This document shows positions 43,856 to 48,578 of a stretch of 64,000 nucleotides of DNA, piece after piece. The DNA is taken from positions 512,001-576,000 of the forward strand of contig OZ244937.1 of assembly GCA_965222075.1 (NCBI GenBank), read 5' to 3'. Within the stretch, counting starts at the first letter, position 1. The number at the start of each line of letters is the position of its first letter. Source of the DNA: Candidatus Latescibacterota bacterium. Its GTDB lineage: Bacteria > Latescibacterota > UBA2968 > GCA-2709665. The position numbers were made by a program, and so were the translations under genes. The notes beneath the pieces are model-generated. The model saw nothing but the letters and a program-made list of their open reading frames with translations. It was not told the DNA's origin and did not search any database.

Positions 43856-43863
43856 AGCCCTGT

Positions 43864-43930
43864 GTGGGCACCAGCCACAGGATAAATTGGTAACGCGCCT
43901 CCAATGCCGGGCCAGTCTGACGCGCCCGGG
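43864..43930 (-). pseudogene. DGR accessory protein Avd-like N-terminal remnant (copy 2)
   Basis: ARQTGPALEARYQFILWLVPT, homologous to the remnant at 48415-48490 and in the same position downstream of a VR-bearing gene. Confidence 0.6.
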
Positions 43931-44107
43931 CTTTTAAGGGGCATTCAAAAGTCTGACTTCTAAGCCTTACAGGAAAGTTCAAAGGGAAAAATACCTCTCA
44001 CAGACCACAGAACCCGTCCAAAAAAATCGAAAAAGCCTCTCAACCCCCCAAAAGCTCCATCCTCATTTCCCCTCCCCTCCCCTCCAAAGAGGTAAAGAGG
44101 TGAAGAT

Positions 44108-44815
44108 TCAAGGGGTAAGCGTCCGGGCAATACGGAAACCGATGACGGCTGAACCGTCCGCCGGAGGAGACCCTGTCGCGGTACGCGGCGCGGAGGTCCT
44201 CGGGTAGTCGAACCACGAGCCGCCGCGCAACACGCGACGCGCACAGTCGCCGCTCTCCCAGGCCGAGCCGTCCGCCGCCGCGCCTCGGTAACTGGCGTGC
44301 CAGCAGTCCTGCACCCACTCCCACACGTTGCCGTGCATGTCATGAAGTCCCCACGCGTTGGCACCGAACGCACCCACCGGCGCCGTCTTCTTACCGCCCC
44401 ACTGACTGCCGCAACCATCGCAATTGGCCCGGCCCTGGCCAATCTCATTCCCCCAGCTATACGCCGTCACCGACCCCGCACGCAACGCATACTCCCACTC
44501 CGCCTCGCTCGGCAAACGGTAACGCAGGTCCGTCTCCACCGACAGCCACTCCGTATACGCCACCGCATCCTCCCACGAAACGTTGATCACCGGACGCCGC
44601 CCACGGCCCCAGCCTGCGTCGTCCATCCGCTCTCTACTCGTCGCCGCCGTGAAGCGATCGTACTCCTCGAACGTCACCTCGTACTTCGACAGCGCGAACG
44701 ACCCAACCGTCACCTCGTGCACCGGCTTCTCGTCGCCAGCACAGTCTTTACCCGACACGCAGCCCATCCGAAAACGGCCCGCAGGAATCACCACCATCTC
44801 AGGCTCAAGCGGCAT
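44108..44815 (-). CDS. FGE-sulfatase/CLec domain carrying a VR-like end; detached C-terminal part of kinase copy 1
   Basis: PEMVVIPAGRFRMG, RPVINVSW, RLPSEAEWEY, GLHDMHGNVWEW, RVLRGGSW...GFRIARTLTP. Confidence 0.85.
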   Translation of the reverse strand: MPLEPEMVVIPAGRFRMGCVSGKDCAGDEKPVHEVTVGSFALSKYEVTFEEYDRFTAATSRERMDDAGWGRGRRPVINVSWEDAVAYTEWLSVETDLRYRLPSEAEWEYALRAGSVTAYSWGNEIGQGRANCDGCGSQWGGKKTAPVGAFGANAWGLHDMHGNVWEWVQDCWHASYRGAAADGSAWESGDCARRVLRGGSWFDYPRTSAPRTATGSPPADGSAVIGFRIARTLTP

Positions 44816-44850
44816 CTGTGGTCACCCTTGCTCTTTCGGCTTCTGTGCAG

Positions 44851-46146
44851 TCACTTGCCTTGCTCTGCTTTCGCTCTTGCTTCTTGCTCTTGACGACGCT
44901 CTTGCTCTTGACGACGCTGCTCAGCCTGTTCTTGACGACGCTGCTTTTCGGGTAGATATTCATATTCATAATAGTATAGCCCCCCAACAAGATAGTATAG
45001 CCCCCCAACAAGGAGAGCAACCATGCATACAACCGCCGCAAGCCACTTCCCTTTGCGCTTTTTGGGAGAACCCGACCAGGCGTCGTCACGCTGATGCACG
45101 GGTGGGGCATCTACTCTCTCTCGTTCCTGTGCAAACGTTGTGACTAATCCCCTGGCAAACAACGGCAACCGGGCGTCGTCACGCTGATGCACGGGTGGGG
45201 CATCTACTATCTCTCGTTCCTGTGCAGACGCTGTGACTGGCGGCGGAATGTTCACGCTGCCTGATGTTTCTCCAGACAGCGCAGGACGCCATGAAGCCAC
45301 ACTTTGCGGGCGGGCAGCCTTATCCATTTGCAGGGCTTTATCTATCGCAGAAAGAAACCCAGCACTCGCTTGACCCGCGCAGCGCTCAGACACTGGAATC
45401 AGCGGGTCCTGGATTACTCTTTCCGTGGCGTCGTCGGGCACTTGACCAGTCAACGCCCGGTAGCACACGGCCCCCAATGCGTAGATGTCTGTCCAGGGCC
45501 CTTGATCACCCCGACTCGAATACTGCTCTATCGGCGCGTAACCCGGCGTGATAATCGACGTAACAGAACGGCTCTTAGCACCGATCGCCTGACGCGCCGC
45601 ACCAAAGTCCAGCAACACAGGTGAATTGTCCTCATCCCGAATGATGATGTTGCCCGGCTTGATGTCACGGTGCAGGAAATCGGCACGATGTACCACCTCA
45701 AGGCCATCCAGGATCGGATACAGAATGGCCTTGAGTTCGGCTTCGCTCAGCGTCCCTTTGCGTGCGAGGAATGCCGATAAGGTTTCGCCCTCGGCATACT
45801 CCATCACGATATACGCCGTGCCATGCGCCTCAAAAAAGCGATACACTTTAATAATGTGGCGATGATCGAAGCGGGCTAAGGTGCGTGCTTCATCTAAGAA
45901 ACGACCCAGTCCCCACTCAAAATCATCTCGAAACTGGCTGGCTTGCGGGGCAACGCTGTTGTCGCCTGTACGGGTGGCGATATCGGCGGGCAGGTATTCC
46001 TTAATGGCCACGGCTTTGTCCAGGTTGTGGTCAAAGCCCAGATACGTCATCCCGAATCCGCCAAAGCCCAGCACCCTCACCAGTTCGTATTCCTGGAGAC
46101 GGTACCCCTGGGGCAGCGCGTTGAGGGGGTGGTGTGCGTCGTTCAT
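44851..46146 (-). CDS. Ser/Thr protein kinase with TM helix (copy 1; out of frame with its FGE domain)
   Basis: GFGGFG, VAIKE, HRDIKPGN, DFG, GYAPIE; TM WLAAVVCMVALLVGGLY; near-identical to 48579-50993. Confidence 0.9.
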   Translation of the reverse strand: MNDAHHPLNALPQGYRLQEYELVRVLGFGGFGMTYLGFDHNLDKAVAIKEYLPADIATRTGDNSVAPQASQFRDDFEWGLGRFLDEARTLARFDHRHIIKVYRFFEAHGTAYIVMEYAEGETLSAFLARKGTLSEAELKAILYPILDGLEVVHRADFLHRDIKPGNIIIRDEDNSPVLLDFGAARQAIGAKSRSVTSIITPGYAPIEQYSSRGDQGPWTDIYALGAVCYRALTGQVPDDATERVIQDPLIPVSERCAGQASAGFLSAIDKALQMDKAARPQSVASWRPALSGETSGSVNIPPPVTASAQEREIVDAPPVHQRDDARLPLFARGLVTTFAQERERVDAPPVHQRDDAWSGSPKKRKGKWLAAVVCMVALLVGGLYYLVGGLYYYEYEYLPEKQRRQEQAEQRRQEQERRQEQEARAKAEQGK

Positions 46147-46201
46147 AGTGTTTCCCTCAAAGGGTTCTTCTCTTGTGTGTTCATCCCCGTGCGGACGAGG
46201 A

Positions 46202-46261
46202 CCTGCCTGCCGGGTCGCCTGCCTGCGCGGAGTTCTGCTCGGCAGGCAGGGCGCAGGCAGG
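46202..46261. repeat. Nested palindromic elements (33 in 27 bp) with an empty-site paralog at ~51047
   Basis: gacgagga[60 bp]cgtccgcgc here versus gacgaggatgtccgcgc in the duplicated segment. Confidence 0.9.
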
Positions 46262-46331
46262 CGTCCGCGCTCCCAGGTTGGCATGGCGCACTCAAACCAT
46301 GCGGGCGAGGACGCCCGCGTTCCCAGGGAGG

Positions 46332-46495
46332 TTAATCTTTCGCTCTTTCTTCCGTATCCTGCCAATCGAACGCGTCGCCGCACAGGGGCACGAACCGGAG
46401 AACCGTTGCGCCAATGCTGATATGGCTATGCGCGGGCAGTTCCGTCGGAATGAGCACGGGCTGGTCGTTGAGGTAGGTCAGGTTGGTGCCGCTCC
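46332..46495 (-). pseudogene. 3' fragment of the FHA-domain gene (duplicate of 51118-51275)
   Basis: GTNLTYLNDQPVLIPTEL...IGATVLRFVPLCGDAFDW. Confidence 0.8.
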
Positions 46496-46497
46496 CT

Positions 46498-47001
46498 TCA
46501 TTCGTTGGGTTGAGCGGAAAGTTTAACTTCGATATTGCAGTGAAGTTTGTCTTGAAGAATGAAAAGAATATGCGTGAGATTATCCATTGTAGGATTTCCT
46601 TTTGACGACAACATACGATGGACACTCTTGCTGGGCTTATCGAGCTCTTTTGCCAATAATTCAAAACCAATCGTTGAATTTACGAGTTCCCGAAGAACAA
46701 GACGGGCAGTTTCAGAATCCCCGCTTAAAAAAGATGAAACGGCTTCATTCATTAGAGATGCAGCAAAATCAGGATCTCTTTCTGCCCTTTCTCTAATTGT
46801 CTGCCTGTAGTCGCGTGTCAGTGCCATGTTTATCTCCTGCGATTTGTATTCTTTCATCATCTCTCCGGCTTTCGCAATATCCCTTTGTTGGCGGTCTTTT
46901 GTGCCGCCTCCCAGCAATACGATAAGGTCGTCACCATCCTGGAGTAAATAGATTCGATATCCTGGACCCCAATCAATTTTGTATTCTCCAAGCCCTGGCA
47001 A
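46498..47001 (-). CDS. Addiction module: 5'-truncated RelE/HigB-like killer in frame with an HTH antidote (antidote ATG 46827)
   Basis: [14 protein letters not shown]...[14 protein letters not shown], then MALTRDY...[18 protein letters not shown]. Confidence 0.8.
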
Positions 47002-48015
47002 TCAGGTCGTGGTGTCTGATTGTGTTGACGACTGCGTCGGGGCGTCTCGATTTTTTTCTTCTAGCGGTTCCCCACTGATTTTGCCTGTCTCGATTCGTCT
47101 TGATTGCTGACCGGGTGACGCTGTCAGCGCTTTCTTCAAGGCAGACCAAAGCCCTGACAGGCCTGTTTCCCGTCTTGATGGCTGAGTCTCTTCGCCCTGT
47201 TTGGATTTCTCCTGGGCGGTATCATCGGGAAGCGTTTCCACCCCACAATCGGCCTCCGGAGTGTAGAGCAACACGGTGGTATTGTCCTGGTGGGGATGTC
47301 CGACCTCTTCCACGGCATGGATGAGTGCCCCGGTGACTTCTTCAAGGGGTGCGTCCTGCATGTCCTGTAGAATACGCGCAATCTCCTCATCCTCAAGCGT
47401 CATTAAACCATCACTCGCCAATAACAGACGATCGCTTTTTCGAACGGCAACCGGTTGCGATGAAATGTCAATCAGGTGGATTTCATCGCCCATGACCGCA
47501 GACCGCAGGGCATGCCGTTTGGAATCGGTCGCGGCTTCTTCTGCGGTCATGCGCCCCGCCGCCACCAGGCTGGCGAGCACCGGCGCCATGGAGTGATCGG
47601 CATTGAGGCGGCGCAACTGCCCGTCACGGAACAACCACAAGGGGGAATCCCCCACACTGATCCAGTCGAGTCCGTGTTGTGAAATGACCGCTGCGACCAC
47701 GGTTGACCCCATGCCCTTCAGTTCAGGATTATCCTCGGTAGCCCGGGCAAGGGCATCATTGGCGGCGGTGAGGCAGGCGCGCAGACGATCCGGGACTGGC
47801 CCGTCCGTGCGGGGATAGGTCTCGACAAAGGTCTTGACAACGGTCCTGCTGGCCGTGTCGCCGCTGACGTGCCCGCCCATCCCATCGGCTAACAACAACA
47901 CCTCACTGCCGTCAATATCGGGATCGCCGCGCTCAATCAGGCCGTAATCGTCCTCCTGATATTCCCGCCCACCGGGAATTTGCCGCGCGGCGAATCGTCC
48001 TTCCAATCGGTTCAT
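47002..48015 (-). CDS. PP2C-family Ser/Thr phosphatase
   Basis: REYQED, LADGMGGH, MGST, VGDS, DHS, LLASDGL, HQDNTT. Confidence 0.93.
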   Translation of the reverse strand: MNRLEGRFAARQIPGGREYQEDDYGLIERGDPDIDGSEVLLLADGMGGHVSGDTASRTVVKTFVETYPRTDGPVPDRLRACLTAANDALARATEDNPELKGMGSTVVAAVISQHGLDWISVGDSPLWLFRDGQLRRLNADHSMAPVLASLVAAGRMTAEEAATDSKRHALRSAVMGDEIHLIDISSQPVAVRKSDRLLLASDGLMTLEDEEIARILQDMQDAPLEEVTGALIHAVEEVGHPHQDNTTVLLYTPEADCGVETLPDDTAQEKSKQGEETQPSRRETGLSGLWSALKKALTASPGQQSRRIETGKISGEPLEEKNRDAPTQSSTQSDTTT

Positions 48016-48079
48016 GGTGTTCCTCCAATACGGCGCAGGGCTGCTGCCGTCTCATTGGCATTGTATGCCATCACAAAGT

Positions 48080-48209
48080 GCAGCGGTGTCCCTTCCCCAC
48101 AGGCGCGAGGCAAAAGGGACACCGCCCTTACCTCATCATGACCGTCCCTGGACGCTCCGTTGCACACCCGGCAACACCGTAGTGCTGCCCGTTCTGGCAG
48201 ACGAGCGTG
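48080..48209 (-). other. DGR RNA 3' spacer-like segment and terminal hairpin downstream of TR
   Basis: Noncoding; includes GAGCGTCCAGGGACGGTCATGATGAG and the hairpin GCGGTGTCCCTT...AAGGGACACCGC; position where the RT gene would normally follow. Confidence 0.5.
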
Positions 48210-48323
48210 CGGGCAACTCGAAAACCCCTATTGTTGTTCCGGTTTTCGATCCTGTTCCTGTTGCGATTGGCCGAGCGGAGGTTCCTCGGTTTGTTGTTCC
48301 ACGAACCGCCACGCAACACGCGC
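48210..48323 (-). repeat. DGR template repeat (TR)
   Basis: 114 bp, ungapped alignment with VR 48595-48708; AAC/AAT-rich (reads RGGSWNNKPRNLRSANRNRNRIENRNNNRGFRVAR); 16 of 18 mismatches at TR adenines. Confidence 0.93.
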
Positions 48324-48414
48324 TCAGGAGGGACGATCAGGCTTCCAAAGCGGATCGAACCACCCGCCTCGAAAGATCGCATGGCGCAACCGCCATGTAT
48401 TGGCATGATCACGC

Positions 48415-48490
48415 TCGACCGTCGGGACCAACCAGACGAGAAAACGAAAGTGCGACTCCAGCGCCGGGCCTTCCCGGATTGAGGCTACCC
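48415..48490 (-). pseudogene. DGR accessory protein Avd-like remnant (N-terminus only)
   Basis: IREGPALESHFRFLVWLVPTVER between the target gene and TR, the canonical avd position; family assignment is from memory. Confidence 0.6.
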
Positions 48491-48527
48491 GCAACGGGCG
48501 GGTGGTTAGCATGCCCTGGCCGGATCG

Positions 48528-48550
48528 CCAGGAGGGCGAAGCCCCCCTGG
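48528..48550. other. DGR target-recognition hairpin/cruciform downstream of VR
   Basis: CCAGGAGGGC-GAA-GCCCCCCTGG, 28 bp past the target stop codon. Confidence 0.75.
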
Positions 48551-48578
48551 ACCCCCCAGGAGGTAAAGAGGTGAAGAT

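What the first reader, a model, noticed from the sequence alone, without database searches (positions are those of the whole stretch)
48080..48550. RT-less, Avd-gutted 'mini-DGR' keeping only the cis/RNA elements
Seen: order is target VR - hairpin - ~25 codons of Avd-like sequence - short leader - TR - spacer/hairpin - PP2C gene. No ORF with RT motifs (YxDD in an RT context) is in the 64 kb. Established: DGRs need RT and Avd, which act on the TR RNA and can work in trans. Inference: either a non-autonomous cassette served by an RT/Avd elsewhere (a MITE-like DGR) or a recently frozen DGR. The precise loss of both protein genes with TR, flanks and hairpin intact favours the former.
Basis: partly seen in the sequence, partly recalled or inferred. 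Interest (0 to 1): 0.8.

Follow-up and report, generated by a model that had tools for sequence, protein, structure and literature searches.

The report
Dead DGR: one deletion removed Avd+RT
This is a real diversity-generating retroelement whose two protein genes were removed by a single 1.26-kb deletion, leaving its template repeat and a frozen variable region as a young fossil rather than a working mini-element.

Summary
On the minus strand lie a kinase/FGE-sulfatase target with VR1, a GC hairpin, an Avd N-terminus, a "leader", the TR, a conserved hairpin and PP2C. TR and VR1 differ at 17 of 32 TR adenines and at 2 of 85 other positions (P = 6e-10).

The "leader" is the last ~28 codons of the RT gene. 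Two relatives (G020, G026) carry the intact cassette in the order VR-avd-RT-TR. So one ~1.26-kb deletion, from avd codon 41 to RT codon ~364, removed both genes and left a 62-codon avd'-'RT fusion ORF. The "precise loss of two genes" therefore needs no special explanation.

No RT or full Avd was found in the 5.36-Mb single-contig genome (97.6% complete) by Pfam, tblastn or phmmer searches. In contigs from four sequencing runs of four studies, VR1 shows only the single change at 48701 among listed variants, while the flanks of two of those runs differ by ~2.5%. One diverged run bridges the deletion junction.

Three other genomes of the same order carry different deletions in this DGR family; two of them cut the TR and the third fused it to the target gene. 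Five of seven VR-like genes in this genome are fragments.

Verdict: a young fossil DGR, an ordinary case of a known kind (~0.88). Service by an RT in trans is unlikely (~0.05).

The parts
48579..50993 (-). DGR target gene, 804 aa: N-terminal Ser/Thr kinase, coiled-coil repeats, C-terminal FGE-sulfatase (C-type-lectin fold) domain carrying VR1. The ORF is intact.
   Evidence: ORF. Pfam Pkinase 7.8e-37 and FGE-sulfatase 3.8e-50.
48589..48712 (-). VR1, the variable repeat at the C-terminus of the target. The last ~22 nt (48590-48611) form the IMH-like tail, with CCCGGAC where the TR has CCCGCAC.
   Evidence: Repeat family D8. Alignment. 17 A-site and 2 non-A mismatches to the TR.
48528..48550 (-). 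GC-rich hairpin with a 4-nt loop just downstream of VR1 and the stop codon, at the position of the known DGR target-site inverted repeat.
   Evidence: Fold (energy not significant, z -1.03). Similar hairpins lie below the VR-like copies at genome 1336k and 297k.
48411..48527 (-). Remnant of the avd gene: residues 4-40 of 132, with the start codon region kept. It ends at ...WLVPTVER, just before the FPRSQKFLLG motif of intact copies.
   Evidence: tblastn with the Avd of G020 and G026. The G020 Avd matches Pfam bAvd at 4.9e-17.
48324..48410 (-). Remnant of the RT gene: the last ~28 codons (residues ~365/366-393) plus the stop codon.
   Evidence: tblastn 96% identity to the G020 RT. DNA alignments. 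phmmer hit 3.5e-14.
48324..48512 (-). 62-codon in-frame avd'-'RT fusion ORF made by the deletion. The junction lies at 48410/48411. No function is expected.
   Evidence: ORF. No Pfam family. Junction bridged by a contig of run X3 with 0 differences.
48204..48327 (-). TR, the template repeat, starting at the RT stop codon. It has 32 adenines in 117 positions and 8 AAC codons. Its 3' tail is IMH*-like.
   Evidence: It is the only sequence in the genome that, taken as template, gives an A-dominated mismatch pattern.
48032..48203 (-). Conserved spacer downstream of the TR, 84-86% identical to G020 and G026. It includes a 12-13 bp hairpin at 48083-48125. It is probably the 3' part of the DGR RNA (inference).
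   Evidence: DNA matches. Hairpin z -4.46. 5 of 53 predicted pairs have compensatory changes, in only 3 sequences.
47002..48015 (-). PP2C-family phosphatase gene. It is the syntenic downstream neighbour of the cassette in G020 and G052 as well.
   Evidence: Pfam PP2C_2 1.8e-11. Homologous ORFs in L031 and L035.
43863..44815 (-). Older, more decayed sister copy. It has an FGE-sulfatase ORF (44108..44815) split from its kinase (44851..46383), a VR-like end with a 1-nt frameshift relative to the TR, and an avd remnant (residues 16-37) at 43863-43928. It has no TR.

Best explanation
The locus is a recently inactivated diversity-generating retroelement with the gene order target(VR)-avd-RT-TR. This order is Architecture B2 of Wu et al. 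2018.

One deletion of about 1.26 kb ran from avd codon 41 to RT codon ~364. It fused the first 40 codons of avd in frame to the last ~28 codons of RT. The TR, its downstream spacer and hairpin, and the VR-side recognition elements survive only because they lay outside the two breakpoints.

With no RT and no Avd in the cell, mutagenic retrohoming has stopped. VR1 is frozen in the state written by the last homing event. The kinase/lectin-fold protein now works as a fixed-specificity sensor kinase beside its PP2C and FHA partners.

Shown by the calls: the anatomy, the single-deletion origin, the absence of RT and Avd from the assembly, and an essentially unchanged VR1 in contigs of four runs. 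Inferred: that the element no longer diversifies in any cell, and that the target protein is still in use.
For: 1. Intact relatives. G020 (L031) and G026 (L032) have target - Avd (132 aa) - RT (393 and 375 aa, with IGNLTSQ and YVDD) - TR right after the RT stop. G020 also has PP2C downstream.

2. Adjacent remnants. In G000, tblastn finds Avd residues 4-40 at window 48527-48411 directly abutting RT residues 366-393 at 48410-48327. By my arithmetic from the ORF and tblastn coordinates, about 1,258 bp are missing relative to both relatives. DNA homology to G020 and G026 resumes immediately after the avd remnant, at query positions 191-192, and runs through the TR and spacer.

3. No RT or Avd elsewhere.
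- PF00078, PF05635 and PF22296 each give 0 matches in the genome.
- tblastn finds no other RT match below E = 1, and only two further truncated Avd stubs.
- phmmer with 16 RT ORFs finds only the remnant below E = 0.1.
- The genome is one contig, 97.59% complete, with no N.

4. Frozen VR1.
- Contigs of runs X1 and X5 cover 48570-48741 with 1 difference.
- X3 covers 48560-48975 with 4 differences, and X8 covers 48461-49250 with 7.
- The same X3 and X8 haplotype has 16 differences in ~640 nt of 47587-48296.
- The only listed VR1 variant is 48701. At that site all four runs carry the TR-matching base, as the only or the majority base, so it is a point mutation of the reference strain.
- An X3 contig spans the junction (48327-48470) with 0 differences, so the deletion predates the split of these haplotypes.

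5. Decay is general.
- Of 53 genomes of the order, a strong match (E <= 1e-20) to the RT-3'-end/TR/spacer stretch occurs in 5.
- The cassette is intact in 2. It is degraded by different deletions in G000, G052 and G035, and also in G030, which has lost that stretch altogether and was found with the RT query.
- G052 and G030 lost part or all of the TR.
- Within G000, 5 of 7 VR-like genes are fragments or split.
Against: - The cis elements look fully intact. The TR is open, has 32 adenines, and has IMH* distinct from IMH; both hairpins are present.
- The target ORF is intact.
- Only 2 non-A mismatches separate the TR and VR1. Wu et al. 2018 report non-A differences in 23% of DGRs they regard as functional, so these mismatches alone do not prove decay.
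- The genome is a single chromosome-level contig. A plasmid or phage carrying an RT would not be in it.
- Loose ends at exactly 48411 in runs X3 and X5 read on into FPRSQKFLLG / FPRRQKFLLG. Longer avd copies therefore exist in those metagenomes. The X5 one is not this strain's 931k paralogue (5 differences in 30 nt).
- Logan contigs drop rare variants, so low-level diversification within a sample is not excluded.
Confidence: 0.88

Rival explanations
1. Non-autonomous 'mini-DGR'. The TR-spacer unit is kept by selection and is reverse-transcribed by an RT/Avd pair supplied in trans from a plasmid, a phage or another replicon not in the assembly, so VR1 still diversifies.
For: - DGR components can act in trans. 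Passages of Wu et al. 2018 cite plasmid-borne avd-TR-brt. Dore et al. 2024 infer trans diversification of incomplete loci in Thiohalocapsa.
- The TR, IMH/IMH*, both hairpins and 84 nt upstream of the TR are intact.
- Longer avd sequences occur in two of the metagenomes laid.
Against: - No RT of any class and no full Avd is in the 5.36-Mb genome.
- No close RT or exact TR-flank match is in the viral collection. There were 0 exact hits, and 1 weak hit at 41% over 46 residues.
- The JGI metagenome contigs give 0 exact hits.
- VR1 is essentially unchanged in contigs of four runs from four studies, although neighbouring DNA has diverged.
- The TR is single-copy, not dispersed as a MITE would be.
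- The intact TR needs no selection. The deletion is young: 1-2 non-A changes have accrued since the last homing. Sister genomes lost the TR as readily as the RT.
- In the published trans cases a complete locus of the same class lies in the same genome. Here none does.
Confidence: 0.05
2. The deletion is polymorphic. Some cells of the same population still carry the intact avd-RT allele at this locus and diversify VR1 in cis, and the assembled genome merely represents the deleted allele.
For: Loose ends at 48411 in X3 (1 contig, 255 nt) and X5 (2 contigs) continue as an uninterrupted avd reading frame. Dore et al. 2024 found such structural variants with intact RT at two disrupted loci.
Against: - These contigs were laid at 88% likeness in metagenomes. 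They may come from paralogues such as the 931k locus or from other Latescibacterota.
- The junction-bearing contig is present in the diverged X3 haplotype.
- No A-site variation in VR1 is among the listed variants of any of the 4 runs (56 further variants of the stretch were not shown).
- This would not rescue the cassette as a 'mini-DGR'.
Confidence: 0.05
3. Assembly artefact: the RT and avd are present in the organism but collapsed out of the assembly.
For: None beyond the general possibility for repeat-bearing loci.
Against: - There are no Ns.
- The junction produces a clean in-frame fusion.
- A contig of a different study (X3, 48327-48470, 0 differences) bridges it.
Confidence: 0.01

Closest known systems
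Architecture B2 DGRs (avd-RT-TR core) with C-type-lectin/FGE-sulfatase targets, as classified by Wu et al. 2018 (PMC5758913; passages seen)
   Same: The gene order in the intact relatives G020 and G026. Also the TR/VR pair with A-to-N differences, AAC-rich TR, IMH/IMH* tails, a GC hairpin after the VR, an Avd of the bAvd family, and an RT with IGxxxSQ and YVDD.
   Different: Here avd is cut to 40 codons and RT to ~28 codons, so the element lacks the two proteins that define an active DGR.
'Degenerate' / incomplete DGR loci of Thiohalocapsa PB-PSB1 (Dore et al. 2024, PMC10907252; section 5 and passages seen)
   Same: Loci that keep targets and repeats while the key machinery is missing or pseudogenised. 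The targets include kinase and CLec fusions, and the loci sit in genomes with many paralogous targets.
   Different: In that genome every class keeps one complete locus that can serve the others in trans, and most incomplete loci were seen to diversify. Here no complete locus remains and VR1 does not vary in the four runs laid. There, decay is attributed to transposons and MITE-like repeats. Here it is a plain internal deletion.
DGR-diversified Ser/Thr kinase sensors in cyanobacteria
   Same: A kinase N-terminus fused to a C-terminal lectin-fold VR domain, next to signalling partners (here PP2C and an FHA protein).
   Different: This is a recollection only. The diversifier here is dead.

Membership tests
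Active diversity-generating retroelement | TR/VR repeat pair whose differences fall almost only at TR adenines | tested here: met
   17 of 19 mismatches lie at 32 A of 117 positions, P = 6e-10.
Active diversity-generating retroelement | DGR-clade reverse transcriptase encoded in the cassette or the genome | tested here: not met
   Only RT residues ~365-393 remain. PF00078 gives 0 matches genome-wide. phmmer with 16 RT ORFs finds only the remnant below E = 0.1.
Active diversity-generating retroelement | Accessory protein (Avd) for this Avd-type lineage | tested here: not met
   There are three stubs of 22-47 residues and no full copy. PF05635 and PF22296 give 0 matches.
Active diversity-generating retroelement | IMH at the VR end, a differing IMH* at the TR end, and a GC inverted repeat downstream of the VR | tested here: met
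   All VR copies have CCCGGAC where the TR has CCCGCAC. The hairpin is present but its energy is not significant.
Active diversity-generating retroelement | Ongoing diversification of the VR in populations | tested here: not met
   In contigs of 4 runs from 4 studies the only listed VR1 variant is 48701, a non-A site. Contigs cannot exclude rare variants.
Degenerate / fossil DGR locus | Recognisable TR and/or VR with machinery deleted or pseudogenised, derivable from an intact relative by simple lesions | tested here: met
   A single ~1.26-kb deletion relative to G020 and G026.
Non-autonomous (MITE-like) mobile cassette | Several dispersed copies of the non-coding unit plus an autonomous partner in the same genome | tested here: not met
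   The TR is single-copy. No partner RT or Avd was found.

The most novel reading that the evidence does not exclude
The surviving unit (84 nt of RT 3' end + TR + spacer hairpin) is still a competent DGR template. An RT/Avd pair arriving on another replicon or from a co-resident strain can use it, so the locus is switched on only episodically. In addition, the near-identical breakpoint in two independent deletions marks the 5' boundary of the functional DGR RNA. G000 keeps everything 3' of RT codon ~364, and G030 deletes from there to the spacer hairpin. This hints that the deletions themselves were RT/cDNA-mediated.
Probability: 0.05. Interest if true: 0.65.

Novelty: new member of a known kind. 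Interest (0 to 1): 0.2.

Why it matters
It mainly matters as a correction. What looked like a streamlined, trans-served mini-DGR is an ordinary young fossil. The apparent precision of the loss comes from assuming the wrong gene order.

It is also a clean, datable example of how DGRs die. One in-frame deletion was followed by freezing of the variable region, while the target kinase stays intact. This happened in a lineage where the same cassette has decayed independently in at least four genomes. Record titles label the two intact relatives as Latescibacterota MAGs.

For annotation pipelines that seed on the RT, such loci are invisible, although their targets carry a written-in DGR history.

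Tried and rejected
- Rfam scan of 47900-48700: only a chance-level match (ASpks, E 0.46, 19.7 bits against a gathering score of 52).
- The search of earlier findings for this genome returned nothing.
- Exact 29-nt pattern from the RT-3'/TR boundary: 0 hits in viral contigs and 0 in metagenome contigs. There were 2 hits in genome contigs.
- RT-profile search of viral contigs: 1 weak locus, 41% identity over 46 residues.
- The PF05635 search for Avd was a poor choice, because the G020 Avd itself scores only 0.0024 on it. I repeated the search with PF22296 and tblastn.
- MAFFT misplaced the avd remnant in the three-way DNA alignment. The left side was settled by tblastn coordinates instead. The local DNA alignment of the left side also stopped short of avd.
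- The same-genus genome G001 (94% complete, 320 contigs) has no match to the cassette DNA and none to the G020 RT. Its one PF00078 fragment is only 30% identical to the G026 RT over 53 residues.
- I considered each other VR-like site as a second TR. None gives an A-dominated pattern when taken as template.
- One literature search was badly posed and gave nothing relevant.
I therefore make no claim about expression or habitat.
- Parts of the stretch are not covered by the listed contigs in X1, X5 and X8, including the junction in those three runs. That is no evidence either way.

Full report
**1. What is there**

All features lie on the minus strand of the window.

- ORF 48579..50993 encodes an 804-aa protein. 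It has an N-terminal protein kinase domain (Pkinase 7.8e-37) and a C-terminal FGE-sulfatase domain (3.8e-50).
- Its last ~124 nt (48589-48712) are repeated 385 nt downstream at 48204-48327, with 83% identity (family D8).
- The downstream copy is adenine-rich. It has 32 A in 117 positions and 8 AAC codons, and reads ...NNKPRNLRSANRNRNRIENRNNNRG....
- Over those 117 positions the two copies differ at 19 sites, 17 of them at adenines of the downstream copy. The hypergeometric probability is 6e-10. This is the signature of a DGR template repeat (TR) and variable repeat (VR1).
- The 3' tails also differ in the expected way. All VR-like copies in the genome read CCCGGAC where the TR reads CCCGCAC, the IMH versus IMH* pattern.
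- Below VR1 lies a GC-rich hairpin. Its energy is not better than shuffles (z -1.03). Its position is conserved below other VR copies.
- Below the TR lies a strong hairpin at 48083-48125 (z -4.46, 0 of 200 shuffles). It sits inside a spacer that is 84-86% identical to two relatives. In only three sequences, 5 of 53 predicted pairs show compensatory changes.
- The PP2C gene follows at 47002..48015.

**2. What the "Avd-like codons" and the "leader" are**

A DNA search of 40 relatives found two genomes, G020 (same family) and G026 (same order), whose match to the locus begins immediately after the Avd-like stretch (query positions 191-192). The match runs through the TR and spacer. Both also have a PF00078 hit just upstream of that match.

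- In G020 (L031) the order is kinase/FGE target, Avd (132 aa; Pfam bAvd 4.9e-17), RT (393 aa; RVT_1 1e-14), then the TR starting at the RT stop codon, then PP2C.
- G026 (L032) has the same order up to the TR.
- The two RTs are 78% identical and carry IGNLTSQ and YVDD.
- This avd-RT-TR core is Architecture B2 of Wu et al. 2018 (PMC5758913, passages seen).

tblastn of these proteins against the whole G000 genome gives two adjacent remnants:
- Avd residues 4-40 at window 48527-48411.
- Directly abutting, RT residues 366-393 at 48410-48327, 96% identical.

The 62-codon ORF 48324..48512 is therefore an in-frame avd'-'RT fusion. It reads ...GPALESHFRFLVWLVPTVER | DHANTWRLRHAIFRGGWFDPLWKPDRPS. The "short leader" is the 3' end of the RT gene.

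By my arithmetic from the ORF and tblastn coordinates, about 1,258 bp are missing relative to both G020 and G026. The number is 1,255 if the junction codon GAT belongs to the RT. One deletion removed both genes. No long microhomology is evident at the junction, but the direct ancestor is not available.

**3. Is there an RT or Avd anywhere else?**

The genome is one contig of 5,360,005 bases, 97.59% complete, with no N.

- PF00078 gives 0 matches. The control rings in 3 of 14 genomes, and 19 of 41 genomes searched in the relatives call (G000 included) have matches.
- PF05635 and PF22296 give 0 matches.
- tblastn with two RTs finds no other match below E = 1.
- tblastn with two Avds finds three truncated stubs: this one, window 43863-43928, and genome 931401-931541.
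- phmmer with 16 RT ORFs from relatives (group II intron-like, DGR and others) against 73,985 stop-to-stop ORFs finds only the remnant below E = 0.1.
- No close RT or exact TR-flank match exists in the viral collection or in the JGI metagenome contigs.
- A plasmid or phage missing from the assembly cannot be excluded.

**4. Is VR1 still changing?**

I laid Logan contigs of four runs from four studies on 47000-49250.

- Runs X1 and X5 cover 48570-48741 with one difference.
- X3 covers 48560-48975 with four differences, and X8 covers 48461-49250 with seven.
- The X3 and X8 haplotype differs from the reference at 16 of ~640 positions in 47587-48296. These are diverged strains, yet they keep the same 17 A-derived substitutions.
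- The only listed variant inside VR1 is 48701. There all four runs carry the base that matches the TR (44.3 of 58.3; 10.7 of 10.7; 125.8 of 129.7; 3.41 of 3.41 depth). One of the two non-A mismatches is therefore a point mutation of the reference strain.
- The table notes that 56 further variants of the stretch are not shown. The per-contig counts above bound what they can be.
- An X3 contig (48327-48470, 0 differences) bridges the deletion junction. The deletion therefore predates the split of these haplotypes, and VR1 has not been rewritten since.
- Contigs drop rare variants, so low-level diversity within a sample is not excluded.

**5. Why the intact TR needs no selection**

- Since the last homing, only one or two non-A changes separate the TR and VR1. 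The strains differ by roughly 1-2.5% around the locus. A 124-nt neutral sequence would be expected to have collected about that many changes. This is inference.
- Wu et al. report non-A differences in 23% of curated DGRs, so the mismatches alone prove little either way.
- VR1 shares TR states that are specific to G000. One example is CAGGATCG where G020 and G026 have CACCACCG. VR1 was therefore written by this TR in this lineage.

**6. The wider picture is decay**

Across the order:
- Of 53 genomes, a strong match (E <= 1e-20) to the RT-3'-end/TR/spacer stretch occurs in 5: G000, G020, G026, G035 and G052.
- G052 keeps Avd to about residue 60, joined to RT residues 81-195, joined to the middle of the TR, then spacer and PP2C. 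That is two independent deletions, one of which cuts the TR.
- G030, found with the RT query, keeps RT residues 245 to ~364 joined directly to the 3' arm of the spacer hairpin. The RT C-terminus, TR and spacer are gone.
- G035 has no RT. Its FGE-sulfatase gene ends in TR-like sequence followed by the TR-downstream sequence, as expected from VR x TR recombination.

Within G000:
- BLAST finds seven VR-like C-termini.
- Only VR1 and the copy at genome 2159027-2161858 sit in long ORFs.
- Five are fragments or split genes.
- Only genome 2821126-2821245 shows a second A-dominated pattern against this TR (18 A versus 7-8 non-A mismatches). It lies in a 184-aa fragment.
- The other copies share non-A states that imply a second TR, now lost.

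**7. Comparison with what is known**

- Dore et al. 2024 (PMC10907252; section 5 and passages seen) describe "degenerate" DGR loci where key machinery is missing or pseudogenised.
- In their genome one complete locus per class remains in the same genome. They give evidence for diversification in trans, and they report structural variants with intact RT at two disrupted loci.
- The present locus belongs to that kind. It differs in that no complete locus remains and no variation is seen.
- I searched for print on orphan or truncated DGR templates and saw nothing describing a selected RT-less template cassette. These were word searches of an open-access library, and supplements were not examined.
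- The role of a spacer downstream of the TR in priming cDNA synthesis (Handa et al. 2018, PMC6182149) is recalled. Only the search listing and abstract were seen.

**8. Verdict**

This is a real DGR, dead by one deletion. Its template is still pristine because the lesion is young.
- Fossil DGR: confidence 0.88.
- Trans-served mini-DGR: 0.05.
- Polymorphic deletion with an intact allele in the population: 0.05.
- Assembly artefact: 0.01.

Interest is low. The one oddity worth a note is that the G000 and G030 deletions share a breakpoint within 2-3 nt in the RT gene.

Noticed in passing
window 43900-46500 versus 48550-51300: There is a ~4.85-kb segmental duplication, 80-97% identical in blocks. 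Copy A has its target split into a kinase ORF (44851..46383) and an FGE-sulfatase ORF (44108..44815). Its VR-like end carries a 1-nt frameshift relative to the TR. An avd stub (Avd residues 16-37) lies at 43863-43928. Copy A has no TR.
   Followed up: partly
G030 locus L039:1435-1872 (-) and window 48410/48411: Two independent deletions share a breakpoint within 2-3 nt in the RT gene. G030 keeps the RT up to ...ATCGCGCATG and joins it to the spacer hairpin. G000 keeps the RT from GA(T)CATGCC onward. The site has short direct and palindromic repeats (GCATGC-AGA-GCATGC in G020). It may be a hot spot, the 5' edge of the DGR RNA, or chance; with several decayed loci compared, chance is not remote.
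   Followed up: partly
G035 locus L033:2989-4065 (-): A 358-aa FGE-sulfatase gene ends in a partly N-rich, TR-like sequence and continues into the sequence that normally follows the TR (...GFRVARTLVGSNGQH). The genome has no RT. This looks like VR x TR recombination that excised avd and RT.
   Followed up: partly
window 48411 (runs X3, X5): Contigs that match the avd stub diverge exactly at the junction and read on as FPRSQKFLLG (X3) or FPRRQKFLLG (X5), which is a longer avd. The X5 version differs at 5 of 30 nt from this genome's own 931k paralogue, so another avd-bearing strain or species is in that sample.
   Followed up: partly
genome 297397-297756, 929973-931541, 1336103-1336633, 2159027-2161858, 2821116-2821670 (G000:C1): This is a family of VR-like FGE-sulfatase C-termini with a conserved IMH, stop codon and 3' flank. 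Three are short fragments (119-184 aa stop-to-stop). One has a broken kinase N-terminus and an Avd stub of 47 residues. One is a 943-aa intact ORF. Four of them share non-A states that point to a second TR, now lost.
   Followed up: partly
window 49262-49603: Five tandem copies of a 57-nt unit lie inside the target gene. They encode the repeated coiled-coil segment EAEKARQAAEEAEKRRQEQ between the kinase and lectin-fold domains.
   Followed up: no
window 48523: All four runs carry contigs with an extra AAAA behind 48523 (22.4 of 29.3; 5.6 of 5.6; 27.3 of 41.3; 3.41 of 3.41 depth). The site is between the VR hairpin and the fusion ORF start. It is a strain difference or a small error in the reference.
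   Followed up: no
window 46498-47001 (-) and 51078-51866 (-): A 167-aa ORF between the two duplicated copies has no Pfam family at E <= 0.01. The ORF upstream of the target has a weak FHA match (0.0028, below the cut-off). With the kinase and PP2C this would make a phospho-signalling trio.
   Followed up: no
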